Shown here in pieces: positions 20,737-58,724 of a stretch of DNA of 64,000 bases (the stretch's first letter is position 1; each line of letters opens with the position of its first letter). Made by a program: the position numbers and the translations under genes. The notes under the pieces were generated by a model. That model was not told where the DNA came from, did not search any database, and was given only the letters and a program-made list of their open reading frames with translations. Source of the DNA: a virus (taxonomy: Duplodnaviria; Caudoviricetes); the IMG/VR virus record IMGVR_UViG_3300032138_000680, positions 1 through 64,000 of that record; one strand, 5' to 3'.

Positions 20737-21389
20737 TATTTATCTCTGTAAACTAAAAATTCATTTATCGTATGATATAATGATTCACTATCTTGCTTTT
20801 TACACCTTACCCAATCAAATTCTGAAACTAACTCTGATTTAACCCACCAATCTTCAAATGGCTGATTCATTCCTCTATCATCTACAAATGTTACATCATC
20901 ACATATCAACTCAAATCCTTTGTCTTGTAAAAATTTTATTTGTGGTGCCTTCTCAGCATCATACCAATCAAGTGTCATACCAAAATTCTGTATGATGCCA
21001 TCTTTTTCATCAGGTTCCTCTTTATACTGATTCCTATAAACATCATGTTCAATCGTAATAACTTTTATATCCCAATTCCAATTTAAATTTTTTAATGTTC
21101 TAAATCTATCACCACATTCATCGACATCAATACTTACATAATCAATATCCTTATCAATAAAAGACCAATCTGTTTTTGTAGAATCAACTTGATAAAAGTT
21201 TAACGTATCCCATCCATCAAAATACTCGATATCAATAAAATATCCATCACACCCCCGATTTAACAATGGAAAACATACAGAATGTTCGGGACTGGAACAA
21301 CCAATATCCAAAAAAGTAGGAGTTTCCAGTGAAATTAATGGGAACACTGCCTGTGTGTCGAGTTGGTTGGATAATTGAAAATGTTTCAT
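20736..21389 (-). CDS. Divergent FkbM-like methyltransferase
   Basis: FLDIGC, IDYVSIDVD, VITIEHD, FEDWWV. Confidence 0.6.
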   Translation of the reverse strand: MKHFQLSNQLDTQAVFPLISLETPTFLDIGCSSPEHSVCFPLLNRGCDGYFIDIEYFDGWDTLNFYQVDSTKTDWSFIDKDIDYVSIDVDECGDRFRTLKNLNWNWDIKVITIEHDVYRNQYKEEPDEKDGIIQNFGMTLDWYDAEKAPQIKFLQDKGFELICDDVTFVDDRGMNQPFEDWWVKSELVSEFDWVRCKKQDSESLYHTINEFLVYRDK

Positions 21390-21901
21390 TTATCTCTCCA
21401 ACTCAATATTGGATTATCAATTGGCCATTCGATTCCAATTTGACTGTCATTCCATTTAACTTCTTCTTGGTCAAACCAATCCACATATTCTTTTGGATAT
21501 GATTGTGTATAATGAAATAAACATTCATCACTTAAACACAAATGAGCATTTACAAACCCAGGGGGAACTAAAACACTTATATGATTTCTATCCGATATAA
21601 TATAACTTTCCCATTTATTATAATTTGGTGACTCTAGCCGATTATCTACTACTACCAAATAAACTTCTCCCCAAACACAAGTAATATGTTTCCAAGTAAC
21701 TTCATCACCGTGTAATCCTCGTAAAACATTTTTTCTTGAACGAGTAAATTTAGATATTTTCCATTCATGTCCTTCAGGTAAAATTTCATTCTCTTTTTCC
21801 CAAAAAGTCCACATCTCTCCTCTATAATCAAAGAAAGGATCGGGTTTCAATATCTTCACCTCAGGAAATACTTCTGATACCGTAACTTCAGATTCAAACA
21901 T
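21386..21901 (-). CDS. rmlC: dTDP-4-dehydrorhamnose 3,5-epimerase
   Basis: DYRG, SRKNVLRGLH, VVDNR, VPPGFVNAH, WND...WP...LSxRD. ATG 21901 has a GGGAGA SD, so it is preferred over the GTG at 21937. Confidence 0.9.
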   Translation of the reverse strand: MFESEVTVSEVFPEVKILKPDPFFDYRGEMWTFWEKENEILPEGHEWKISKFTRSRKNVLRGLHGDEVTWKHITCVWGEVYLVVVDNRLESPNYNKWESYIISDRNHISVLVPPGFVNAHLCLSDECLFHYTQSYPKEYVDWFDQEEVKWNDSQIGIEWPIDNPILSWRDK

Positions 21902-21944
21902 AAAAAAAAATCTCCCATAATATTTTATGAGAGACACTTCAATA

Positions 21945-21972
21945 AATACAAAACCCCCCGATAAACGGAGGG
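21945..21972 (-). terminator. Intrinsic terminator-like hairpin
   Basis: Minus strand CCCTCCG-TTTAT-CGGGGGG followed by TTTTGTATTT. Confidence 0.7.
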
Positions 21973-22080
21973 CACTCTTTATGTAGTGCCACCCATGTTT
22001 TATAGTCTGTAAGTAGAGGGTTTGGTCTTTCAGGACTTCAAGCTAAAGCTCTTCCCCGTGTTATCTCTACACGACTCACA
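21973..22080 (-). ncRNA. Candidate structured leader RNA or small RNA
   Basis: GC-rich non-coding island. Stems: AGTC/GACT plus GTAGAG/CTCTAC, CGTGT/ACACG, GTC/GAC, GGCACT/AGTGCC. It lies between a TATTTATA motif and the terminator. Confidence 0.45.
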
Positions 22081-22090
22081 TATAAATAGT
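22081..22090 (-). promoter_or_regulatory. TATTTAT promoter-like motif
   Basis: ACTATTTATA on the coding strand; the same core occurs in other intergenic gaps. Confidence 0.5.
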
Positions 22091-22105
22091 AACTTATATA
22101 AAAAA

Positions 22106-22960
22106 TCACTCTTTAAATTTTAAATACCGCTCATGATTATTTCTTATATAATATACCATTCTTTTATTATATTCATATATCTCACATATTAACATTATTT
22201 CTGGAAATTTTTTCGATAAGAGGCTGATATCCTTCTGTCCCTGAAAATGTCCATCCAGTATTTCTTCCACTAACCAAGGACTAAACAACATTTCATCTTT
22301 TAAAATTCTACCTTCACCATATTCTTTCCAAAATTGATCATGGCAAGCATAAAAAGAATGTAGTGTTTTATGTTTATACGGAATTTTTTTTACAGTTTTC
22401 CATTCTTCATCTTTTTCTTGTAACCACTGTAAAAACTTTGGATTACTTAAATCTTTTAACTCTAAAAAATATACATTTGGGTTTAATGATAACTCCCATA
22501 ACATATTTATAGCAGAATGAAAGCCCCAATTCCAAAATTTTGCATGACTTTTTATCTGCCACCGAAAATTACTTCTATTAATATCGTGTAAAAACGTCAT
22601 CATTTCAAATACTAATTTTGTTTTATGTTTACCGTTATAAAAGTCTTGTTGAATCAAGTTAAAAGGTGATTTATCTGTATGGTATTTAGGATGATTTATC
22701 CAATCATCTGGTAGAAAATTAATTATTTCTTCAAGATATCCACTTTTCCATCTGTCTATCACATCTCTTATTAATATAATATAAATTTTATCTTTCTCCA
22801 CACCATCAGAATATTCTGAAATTTTATTATTTCTATCCTTCTCCAAATGAAATAATGACTGTGTTCCCATTTTTAAAAACTTGGATATTTTTAAATATTC
22901 TGTACCCGTGTAGGGGCCCGTACCTTTAATCTTTGAATACATTTTCCATCCTATTGTCAT
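22106..22960 (-). CDS. Putative sulfotransferase (Sulfotransfer_2-like)
   Basis: KMGTQSL (5'-PSB-like) and ILIRDVIDRWKSG (3'-PB-like). The start may be ATG 22942. Confidence 0.5.
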   Translation of the reverse strand: MTIGWKMYSKIKGTGPYTGTEYLKISKFLKMGTQSLFHLEKDRNNKISEYSDGVEKDKIYIILIRDVIDRWKSGYLEEIINFLPDDWINHPKYHTDKSPFNLIQQDFYNGKHKTKLVFEMMTFLHDINRSNFRWQIKSHAKFWNWGFHSAINMLWELSLNPNVYFLELKDLSNPKFLQWLQEKDEEWKTVKKIPYKHKTLHSFYACHDQFWKEYGEGRILKDEMLFSPWLVEEILDGHFQGQKDISLLSKKFPEIMLICEIYEYNKRMVYYIRNNHERYLKFKE

Positions 22961-33806: not shown

Positions 33807-34004
33807 TTATTTTTCTTCTTCTACTGGAGGTGTATCATCTACATATTTTTTATAAAATTCTGCAAGATAATATTGTACTCTATTACTCCATTCATCTTTA
33901 TCTACTTCTTCAAACCAAATAGTTAAAGAATCAAGTATTGTAACTATTTTTTCAAGAGCTACTACTTTTCGTTCTTCTAATATTCTTTGATCTTTTTCGC
34001 TCAC
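33807..34004 (-). CDS. Small hypothetical protein
   Basis: 65 aa, GTG start with AAGGAG SD, abuts the next gene. Confidence 0.7.
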   Translation of the reverse strand: MSEKDQRILEERKVVALEKIVTILDSLTIWFEEVDKDEWSNRVQYYLAEFYKKYVDDTPPVEEEK

Positions 34005-57935: not shown

Positions 57936-58724
57936 TTAACCGCCTCCACCACCTTCGTCATCGTCATATTCATACCACTCATTAAATGCATGTGGTTCAT
58001 CAGTATCAGGCCCATCAGTTGAATTTGTATTAAAAGCGGGTACAGTATGTCCTGATCCACCAGCGAGGCCTCCATCAATATTATCTAACATTGTATATGG
58101 GCCCGAATAACTGGTCGCGGAGGGAGCTTCTTCTACTTGCGCCCCATCCCAGTAAATTATTTCATCATCAGCTGATGGTGGCCCTCCAAATCTTACTTGA
58201 AAATTTTCAGTATCTACATGATTTGCCTTTCTTGTTGCCTCAAATCTTTGCCAAGATGTAGTTACAGAAATATAATCCACTCCATAGTTACCAGATAAAA
58301 TTGTACCATCTGATTCTGCAAAAAATGTCCATAAGGTACAGGTACAGGCTTTACTTGCCTTTGCCCAAGTACTAAAAGTCCATGTTTCACCATTGTTTGC
58401 ATCCCAGTTAAAACTCCCAGCGCTTGTATTATATGTATATGTATATGCATCATTACCACCTGAACCAGCGTCCAATCTCATTTCTAATGGAGTACCTACT
58501 GAATCTTCTGGAAAAGTAACAGGAGAAGTCAAGGTAGTATTTTGAGATAATGTACATCTTGCACCATTTGTATTTCCTCCGGCAGTAAGCCAGGCCCATA
58601 AATTATAAGGATGTGAAAGTTGATTTACATCTCTTGGTACTAAATAGGCTGTGTCATAATCATCGAAGGCCCTTTCTTTAGTAATTCCTATTAAATGTAC
58701 TGTTCCGCTACTTGGAACTGCCAT
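57936..58724 (-). CDS. Putative tail/virion accessory protein with carbohydrate-binding-like domain
   Basis: Directly follows the tail fibre; GETWTFSTWAK...VTTSWQRF...WDGAQVEE...TSY; AGGAG SD. Confidence 0.65.
   Translation of the reverse strand: MAVPSSGTVHLIGITKERAFDDYDTAYLVPRDVNQLSHPYNLWAWLTAGGNTNGARCTLSQNTTLTSPVTFPEDSVGTPLEMRLDAGSGGNDAYTYTYNTSAGSFNWDANNGETWTFSTWAKASKACTCTLWTFFAESDGTILSGNYGVDYISVTTSWQRFEATRKANHVDTENFQVRFGGPPSADDEIIYWDGAQVEEAPSATSYSGPYTMLDNIDGGLAGGSGHTVPAFNTNSTDGPDTDEPHAFNEWYEYDDDEGGGGG

What the first reader, a model, noticed from the sequence alone, without database searches (positions are those of the whole stretch)
21945..22090. Structured leader RNA with overlapping terminator ahead of a >21-kb sugar operon
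Seen: the largest non-coding gap in the window is GC-rich. On the minus strand it reads: TATTTATA motif; long interrupted stem (22004-22018 with 22065-22076) enclosing small hairpins, with an alternative CGTGT/ACACG pairing; GGCACT/AGTGCC hairpin (21971-21990) overlapping the base of an intrinsic terminator (21954-21972); second TATTTAT (21942-21948); then rmlC. Inference: a riboswitch/attenuator or antitermination element, or a stand-alone ~130-nt sRNA. Known analogues sit near sugar genes (manA and wcaG motifs, EAR element), but I cannot match it to any.
Basis: partly seen in the sequence, partly recalled or inferred. Interest (0 to 1): 0.7.

Follow-up and report, generated by a model that had tools for sequence, protein, structure and literature searches.

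The report
New phage sugar-operon leader RNA
The GC-rich gap ahead of the rmlC-like gene encodes a conserved, pseudoknotted ~107-nt leader RNA, found only in uncultured marine phages and in no Rfam family, whose last stem competes with a terminator and ribosome-site-hiding hairpin, so it is a strong candidate for a new riboswitch-like control element for phage sugar-nucleotide genes.

Summary
On the minus strand, 22077-21971 folds into P0-P1-P2-pseudoknot-P3. A strong terminator (T1) follows, then a hairpin that buries the Shine-Dalgarno site next to a U-run that abuts the ATG.

I collected 42 distinct homologues, all from marine metagenomes or uncultured viral contigs. There is usually one per phage genome. 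Across them, 13 of 24 base pairs show double (compensatory) changes, including two of the three pseudoknot pairs. Junction nucleotides are near-invariant, while P2 and P3 vary in length.

The element sits directly before seven different gene families: RmlC-like, Gmd-like, Fcl-like, another SDR, 2OG-Fe(II) oxygenase, transketolase-like and DUF6071. In 40 of 40 leaders analysed, the hairpin after P3 reuses the last 2-7 nt of P3 and fully pairs the SD.

No Rfam 15 family matches, and the published wcaG alignment shows an unrelated sequence. No copy was found in isolate phages or in bacterial genomes.

Best reading: a new riboswitch-like ON switch with an unknown ligand (about 0.5). A protein-bound leader is the main rival. 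Nothing was tested biochemically, and the transcript evidence is weak.

The parts
22079..22088 (-). Promoter-like box TATTTATATG (family consensus TAYTTATATA), ending 2 nt before the G that precedes P0. The transcription start near P0 is inferred.
   Evidence: The box is present in about three quarters of homologues, 0-5 nt before AAGUC. In the complete relative G001 it occurs 8 times in sense-strand intergenic DNA against 0.5 expected, and 0 times antisense. It is not enriched in the window itself: 5 against 5.1.
21971..22077 (-). Conserved structured core ('aptamer'): P0, P1, P2, pseudoknot, P3.
   Evidence: It scores 96.7 bits with model R1 and 92.5 bits with R2. The MFE of this stretch alone equals the consensus fold. 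Covariation is shown.
22073..22076 (-). P0 5' arm AGUC, pairing with GACU at 22007-22004.
   Evidence: Four invariant pairs. The fifth pair covaries in relatives (UA, AU, GU, CG, GC). RNAalifold recovers P0 on the unfitted alignment.
22066..22070 (-). P1 5' arm GUAGA, pairing with UCUAC at 22017-22013.
   Evidence: Four of five pairs show double changes across homologues, for example GUGGU/ACCAC, GUAGU/ACUAC and AUAGU/ACUAU.
22031..22058 (-). P2 hairpin (CGGGG/UCCUG) with an optional inner hairpin at 22053-22036.
   Evidence: Relatives replace it with CAAG/CUUG, GGGU/ACCC, CUC-UUCG-GAG or GGU/ACC, and its length varies.
22018..22030 (-). Junction J2/1 AAAGACCAAA, nearly invariant, followed by CCC, the 5' strand of the pseudoknot.
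   Evidence: Columns are invariant or nearly so in A2 to A4. CCC pairs with GGG at 21994-21992.
21992..22007 (-). P0 3' arm GACU, conserved linker AUAAAACAU, and pseudoknot 3' strand GGG.
   Evidence: GACUAUAAA is in all copies. The pseudoknot pairs covary: CUC/GAG in L017, and CCG/CGG in L117, L118, L124, L127 and L160. The pseudoknot was not part of the model that made the alignment.
21971..21990 (-). P3 hairpin GGCACU/AGUGCC. Its last 3 nt (GCC) are also the first 3 nt of T1.
   Evidence: P3 forms in all copies with different sequences and loop lengths. P3 alone is -8.1 kcal/mol.
21953..21973 (-). Intrinsic terminator T1: an 8-bp GC-rich stem followed by a U-rich tail.
   Evidence: Found by the terminator scan. 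It is -13.8 kcal/mol in full and -5.2 without the GCC shared with P3. It is present in the 'long' subset of homologues.
21902..21935 (-). Second hairpin (T2) that pairs the Shine-Dalgarno GGGAGA (21916-21911), followed by U9 running up to the start codon.
   Evidence: The SD is fully paired in 40 of 40 leaders. SD plus U-run plus start codon is rare elsewhere: 4 sites in 216 kb and 2 in 94.7 kb.
21386..21901 (-). First regulated gene: RmlC-like cupin epimerase (ATG at 21901). Behind it lies a co-directional array of sugar-modification genes running to the window start.
   Evidence: Pfam PF00908, E = 6.8e-32. Downstream genes include SDR epimerases, an O-methyltransferase, split TPP enzyme parts, ThiG-like and aminotransferases.

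Best explanation
This is a cis-acting, riboswitch-like leader RNA of a family specific to a lineage of uncultured marine myophages.

Transcription probably starts at a phage promoter box just upstream (inferred). The first ~107 nt fold into a long stem (P0/P1) that encloses hairpin P2. A conserved junction in that stem has a CCC that pairs with a GGG downstream, forming a pseudoknot. Hairpin P3 follows immediately.

The 3' end of P3 is also the 5' end of the next hairpin. In the window that hairpin is the strong terminator T1, and a second hairpin then hides the ribosome-binding site in front of a U-run and the ATG. In most relatives a single hairpin does both jobs.

When the core is fully folded, P3 keeps its closing pairs. 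I infer that a small molecule stabilises the pseudoknot and P3 stack. The terminator or sequestering stem is then crippled, and the sugar-nucleotide genes are transcribed and translated. When the core is not folded, the terminator/sequestor forms and expression stops.

Shown here: the conservation, the helices, the pseudoknot, the conserved overlap and the gene associations. Inferred: the promoter, the direction of the switch (ON) and the existence of a ligand. The ligand's identity is a guess; a GDP-sugar or a related nucleotide fits the pathway.
For: (1) Homologues. There are 42 distinct copies in marine metagenomes and viral contigs, and the window scores 96.7 bits.
(2) Structure. 95% of cells pair, against about 40% when partners are slid. 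13 of 24 pairs have changes on both sides. No shuffle of 500 reaches the observed values. RNAalifold on an unfitted MAFFT alignment recovers P0, P1 and P3. P2 is replaced by unrelated hairpins, including a UUCG tetraloop form.
(3) Pseudoknot. Two of its three pairs covary, although the pseudoknot was not in the covariance model.
(4) Riboswitch hallmarks. Junctions are invariant (UAAC, AAAGNCC, GACUAUAAA) beside stems of variable length.
(5) Expression platform. In 40 of 40 leaders the next hairpin uses the last 2-7 nt of P3 and pairs the whole SD. In the window, T1 falls from -13.8 to -5.2 kcal/mol if P3 keeps its GCC. Two platform types occur: terminator plus sequestor, or sequestor alone.
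(6) Gene context. The element sits directly before seven unrelated enzyme families of sugar-nucleotide pathways. This argues against autoregulation by the downstream product. One contig carries two copies 2.1 kb apart, each before its own gene.
(7) Strand. G-U pairs, for example 26 of 41 at one P2 pair, fix the RNA strand as the gene-sense strand.
Against: No ligand is known and none was tested. The overlap between P3 and the next hairpin is only 3 nt in 33 of 40 leaders, shorter than in many characterised riboswitches. All copies come from one phage lineage, and the effective sequence number of the model is only 1.7, so part of the sequence invariance may be shared ancestry. Folding of the single window sequence is not better than shuffles. 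Evidence for a transcript is weak: only contigs from RNA libraries, which may contain DNA. A trans-acting phage protein would explain the same anatomy. Upstream genes are co-directional and end 11-46 nt away, so the element may also act on read-through transcripts. The promoter assignment is inference.
Confidence: 0.5

Rival explanations
1. The leader is the binding site of a trans-acting phage or host protein. Binding, rather than a metabolite, stabilises or disrupts the P3 base and so sets termination and SD access. This would time expression of the glycan genes during infection.
For: The anatomy is the same as for the best explanation. The element occurs only in one phage lineage and once per genome, as expected for a lineage-specific regulator and operator pair. 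The analogous wcaG motif was itself suspected of binding a dimeric protein.
Against: There is no repeated or palindromic protein-site-like sequence in the core. The pseudoknotted core with long invariant junctions and variable peripheral stems is more typical of metabolite aptamers. No candidate regulator gene was identified.
Confidence: 0.25
2. It is a cis-acting processive antitermination RNA, like HK022 put or Bacillus EAR. The RNA modifies the RNA polymerase that made it, so that the polymerase reads through T1, T2 and later terminators across the >21-kb gene array.
For: The layout is promoter-like box, structured RNA, terminators, then a long operon.
Against: Processive antitermination needs no shared nucleotides between the RNA and the terminator, yet the overlap is conserved in 40 of 40 leaders, and the SD is sequestered as well. 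One contig has two copies 2.1 kb apart, which would be redundant for a processive element. No match to epsC/EAR in Rfam.
Confidence: 0.08
3. It is a stand-alone small RNA of about 125-135 nt, running from the promoter box to T1 (or to the SD hairpin), that acts in trans. Its position before sugar genes would be incidental or secondary.
For: It has its own promoter-like box and a strong terminator. Terminated riboswitch leaders can act as sRNAs (established knowledge).
Against: The element always lies 40-100 nt before a start codon on the same strand, with the SD paired to sequence shared with P3. No target complementarity was sought or seen.
Confidence: 0.05
4. It is a constitutive structural element with no sensing role. 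For example, it could be a 5' stabiliser or processing site that defines the 5' end of the downstream mRNA within a polycistronic transcript, or a self-cleaving ribozyme.
For: It is intercistronic, with co-directional upstream genes 11-46 nt away and an A/U-rich box just before P0.
Against: This does not explain the conserved competition between P3 and the terminator/sequestor, nor the pseudoknot abutting P3. No known ribozyme family matches.
Confidence: 0.07

Closest known systems
wcaG RNA motif (Rfam RF01761; Weinberg et al. 2010, PMC2864571)
   Same: It is an orphan riboswitch candidate known almost only from marine metagenomes and phages. It lies in 5' UTRs of exopolysaccharide and sugar-nucleotide genes such as wcaG, and its ligand is unknown.
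   Different: There is no sequence or model similarity. RF01761 gives no match at E<=10 in this genome. The published alignment, with its twin UGGYG boxes, is unrelated. The carriers also differ: T4-like cyanophages for wcaG, and here AT-rich phages whose baseplate protein is closest to Microcystis phage Mel-JY01 and Flavobacterium 'immuto' phages.
manA RNA motif (Rfam RF01745)
   Same: It shares the marine/phage niche, lies in 5' UTRs of mannose-related genes, and has a possible pseudoknot.
   Different: No match in cmscan, even with E<=10 and permissive filters.
EAR / epsC motif (RF01735) and HK022 put RNAs
   Same: They are structured RNAs at the head of a long polysaccharide or phage operon that overcome terminators.
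   Different: Those act processively on RNA polymerase and do not share nucleotides with a terminator or an SD. Here the overlap with the adjacent hairpin is the conserved feature. There is no Rfam match.
Pseudoknotted ON riboswitches with terminator or SD platforms (for example fluoride/crcB and ZTP/pfl)
   Same: The working principle is the same: a compact pseudoknotted aptamer whose 3' helix competes with a terminator or SD-sequestering stem. For crcB, folding of the aptamer is expected to prevent the terminator.
   Different: The sequences and helices are unrelated, no Rfam hit was found, and the ligand is unknown.

Membership tests
wcaG motif (RF01761) | Scores at or above the Rfam gathering threshold (42 bits) with the family covariance model. 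| tested here: not met
   No match at E<=10 in the whole 94.7-kb record, and none in the 701-nt permissive scan.
wcaG motif (RF01761) | Two conserved UGGYG boxes and the P1-P3 arrangement of the published alignment. | tested here: not met
   The published wcaG.sto rows and note were read. The present core has a different sequence and helices.
wcaG motif (RF01761) | 5' UTR of exopolysaccharide or sugar-nucleotide genes in marine phage or metagenome DNA. | tested here: met
   This is context only and does not establish membership.
manA motif (RF01745), epsC/EAR (RF01735), JUMPstart (RF01707) | Match to the family covariance model. | tested here: not met
   The cmscan of all 4227 families found nothing at gathering score in the window or in 12 related loci. 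Only three chance-level hits (PyrR, anti-hemB, snR75) appeared at E<=10.
Riboswitch (generic kind) | A conserved structured aptamer supported by covariation, with invariant junction nucleotides. | tested here: met
Riboswitch (generic kind) | An expression platform (terminator and/or SD sequestor) mutually exclusive with part of the aptamer. | tested here: met
   The overlap is 2-7 nt in 40 of 40 leaders and the SD is paired in 40 of 40.
Riboswitch (generic kind) | Association with several different genes of one pathway. | tested here: met
   Seven downstream gene families.
Riboswitch (generic kind) | Direct, selective binding of a small molecule that changes the RNA fold and gene expression. 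| not testable with these tools
   This needs in-line probing, ITC, transcription assays or reporters.
Intrinsic terminator | A GC-rich hairpin followed by a U-run on the transcribed strand. | tested here: met
   T1 is 21973-21953 and T2 is 21935-21910. The scan found 4 sites against 0.6 expected. Termination itself was not measured.

The most novel reading that the evidence does not exclude
This is the aptamer of a new riboswitch class that senses a nucleotide sugar or pathway intermediate, such as GDP-mannose or a GDP-6-deoxyhexose. It is carried by phages to switch on their own glycan-building genes only when the host supplies the precursor. As far as I know, that would be the first nucleotide-sugar riboswitch, and one apparently confined to phages.
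Probability: 0.2. Interest if true: 0.85.

Novelty: new variant of a known kind. Interest (0 to 1): 0.66.

Why it matters
Orphan riboswitch candidates with this much comparative support are uncommon. This one appears confined to phages, in the collections searched and at the sensitivity used. It controls entry into a very large phage-encoded sugar-modification pathway.

If a ligand is found, it would show how a phage senses host metabolism to time glycan synthesis. It could also add a new ligand class to riboswitch biology and provide a compact (~100 nt) ON switch for engineering.

If the partner is a protein instead, the element defines a new phage regulatory circuit.

Either way, the 42-sequence alignment and the covariance model allow the element to be annotated in marine viromes, where it is currently unannotated.

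Tried and rejected
- **Rfam.** The scan at gathering score on the window and on 12 related loci found nothing. The permissive scan of 21700-22400 gave only chance-level hits.
- **wcaG.** The wcaG model found nothing in this genome, and nothing in cyanophage P-SSM2, so I compared against the published alignment instead.
- **Isolate phages.** blastn of the leader against 50,697 phage records gave no match. Model R2 gave no match in Mel-JY01, an 'immuto' phage or LR756508.
- **Exact P3 word in viral contigs.** No match.
- **Upstream-gene protein as a probe.** No relatives found.
- **Bacterial and archaeal genomes.** The strict pattern gave 7 hits, all chance by inspection. More diverged cellular copies are not excluded.
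- **Loose pattern scans.** These returned mostly chance matches, which the model filtered out.
- **RNA libraries.** Only assembled contigs were available. One contig covers 21565-21900 and stops at the U-run. Another is a relative's element that includes 20 nt upstream of P0. Contigs cannot show starts, ends or strand, and DNA may be present, so I draw no conclusion about the transcript.
- **tRNA/tmRNA.** None in the window.
- **Repeat or mobile remnant.** Rejected, because there is a single copy per genome.
- **Leader peptide.** Rejected. A 22-codon ORF overlaps the L008-type copy, but it has no start codon in most copies, and P2 length differences break the frame (read from the sequences).
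- **CGTGT/ACACG alternative pairing and the second TATTTAT.** Neither is conserved.
- **Antiterminator pairing of AUGGG with the T1 5' arm.** It is possible in some long-type copies but not in the window, so I dropped it.

Full report
**Setting.** The window is the first 64 kb of a 94.7-kb IMG/VR virus record that CheckV rates 31% complete. Nearly all genes lie on the minus strand and are tightly packed. The rest of the record encodes an SbcC-like nuclease, a primase and a baseplate wedge protein. That wedge protein is closest, at 39-44% identity, to those of Microcystis phage Mel-JY01 and the Flavobacterium 'immuto' phages. This is therefore a large, AT-rich, uncultured marine myophage.

The finding lies between an unknown 284-aa gene (stop at 22106) and an RmlC-like gene (ATG at 21901; PF00908, E = 6.8e-32). 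Downstream, a co-directional array encodes SDR epimerases, an O-methyltransferase, split TPP-enzyme parts, a ThiG-like protein and aminotransferases.

**The observation.** The stretch is GC-rich relative to its surroundings. Two terminator-like hairpins are detected, against 0.6 sites expected by chance. Folding the single sequence is not better than shuffled controls (z about -1.2). The MFE of the 107-nt core alone does, however, equal the fold later derived from comparison.

**Homologues.**
- RmlC-based loci from viral contigs showed the same element upstream of rmlC in several phages.
- A pattern built only from unpaired conserved stretches found about 30 distinct copies in marine metagenomes. 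It found none that survive inspection in 185,579 bacterial and archaeal genomes.
- A covariance model (R1) then found diverged copies 1.7-2.6 kb upstream of rmlC in the remaining loci.
- Further pattern scans added more subgroups.

In total there are 42 distinct sequences. A complete 216-kb relative has exactly one copy, and one metagenome contig has two copies 2.1 kb apart. Isolate phages lack the element.

**Structure.** On the 41-sequence model-fitted alignment, 95% of cells form standard pairs, against about 40% when partners are slid by 1-3 columns. Thirteen of 24 pairs carry changes on both sides, and no shuffle of 500 reaches the observed values.
- P1 changes from GUAGA/UCUAC to GUGGU/ACCAC, GUAGU/ACUAC, AUAGU/ACUAU and UAUGAU/AUCAUA.
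- P2 is replaced by unrelated hairpins, including CUC-UUCG-GAG, and carries an optional inner hairpin, which the window has.
- P3 keeps a GGCA base but varies in its upper stem and loop (8-25 nt).
- A 3-bp pseudoknot joins the end of junction J2/1 to the GGG just before P3. It was not part of the model, yet two of its three pairs covary: CUC/GAG in one lineage and CCG/CGG in another.
- RNAalifold on an unfitted MAFFT alignment independently returns P0, P1 and P3.
- Frequent G-U pairs fix the transcribed strand as the gene-sense strand.
- The junctions (UAAC, AAAGNCC..CC, GACUAUAAA) are invariant or nearly so.

One caveat applies to all of this. Every copy comes from one phage lineage, and the model's effective sequence number is 1.7.

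**Expression platform.** In all 40 leaders with a clear start codon, the hairpin after P3 begins with the last 2-7 nt of the P3 3' arm. The Shine-Dalgarno sequence is fully paired in a hairpin followed by a U-run that reaches the start codon. That SD/U-run/start arrangement is otherwise rare in these genomes.

Two platform types occur. In the short type, one hairpin acts as both terminator and sequestor. The long type, which the window has, inserts a strong terminator T1 and then the sequestor. In the window, T1 is worth -13.8 kcal/mol. It falls to -5.2 if P3 (-8.1) keeps the shared GCC. Because the pseudoknot strand lies one nucleotide from the P3 base, a folded core should favour P3 and disfavour the terminator. 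That predicts an ON switch. The direction is inference.

**Promoter.** A box TAYTTATATA lies 0-5 nt before P0 in about three quarters of copies. Another subgroup has TATAAATA there instead. In the complete relative, the box occurs 8 times in sense-strand intergenic DNA against 0.5 expected, and never antisense. It is probably a phage promoter, which would place the 5' end at P0. Upstream genes are co-directional and end 11-46 nt away without a terminator, so read-through transcripts may also carry the element.

**Gene association.** The element directly precedes seven families: RmlC-like, Gmd-like and Fcl-like enzymes, another SDR, a 2OG-Fe(II) oxygenase, a transketolase-like subunit and DUF6071. 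This pattern argues against autoregulation by the downstream product. It fits a metabolite signal or a dedicated trans-factor.

**Comparison with known families.** No Rfam 15 family matches. The wcaG motif is the closest analogue by niche: marine phages, exopolysaccharide genes, unknown ligand (PMC2864571). It fails both the model test and direct inspection of its published alignment. The manA and epsC/EAR motifs also fail the model test. Literature searches found no description of this element. Earlier notes of this scan hold nothing on it beyond the neighbouring sugar genes.

**Verdict.** This is a real, conserved, pseudoknotted cis-regulatory leader RNA of a previously undescribed family. 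I put the probability that it is a genuine structured cis-regulator at about 0.9. Within that, a metabolite-sensing ON riboswitch is the best-supported mechanism (about 0.5), and a protein-bound leader is the main rival (0.25). Transcript evidence from public RNA libraries was inconclusive.

Noticed in passing
G001 (loci L141-L151), e.g. 56804, 60577, 86265, 112881, 120019, 200871; window 22079-22088: The motif TAYTTATATA is strand-specific and enriched in intergenic DNA of the complete 216-kb relative: 8 occurrences against 0.5 expected, none antisense, each 19-216 nt before a gene start. It is probably a phage promoter class of this lineage.
   Followed up: partly
L087:185-313 and L087:2311-2459 (minus strand): One metagenome contig carries two copies of the leader 2.1 kb apart. 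One precedes an Fcl-like gene and the other a Gmd-like gene.
   Followed up: partly
window 33808-34004 (minus strand): The only intergenic gap longer than the one studied is not empty. It holds a GTG-initiated ORF of about 65 codons with a GGAG ribosome site, between a radical SAM gene and a GT7-type glycosyltransferase gene.
   Followed up: no
window 58708-63828 (minus strand): A 1706-aa protein has collagen triple-helix repeats and a C-terminal Peptidase_S74 (endosialidase chaperone) domain. It is likely a tail fibre, sitting at the head of the glycan gene array.
   Followed up: no
L114:8689-10698 (G000 90689-92698): The baseplate wedge protein is closest to Microcystis phage Mel-JY01 (44%), an uncultured 484-kb phage (40%) and Flavobacterium 'immuto' phages (39%). 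The host of this lineage remains unknown. Strong GGAGG ribosome sites and intrinsic terminators suggest a host that uses both.
   Followed up: partly
P2 insert, window 22036-22053, and the same position in about 15 relatives: The optional P2 extension has purine-rich internal-loop strands (AAG opposite UGAAG) flanking a short UUCG- or UUUA-capped stem. It looks like a sheared G-A or kink-turn-like module.
   Followed up: no
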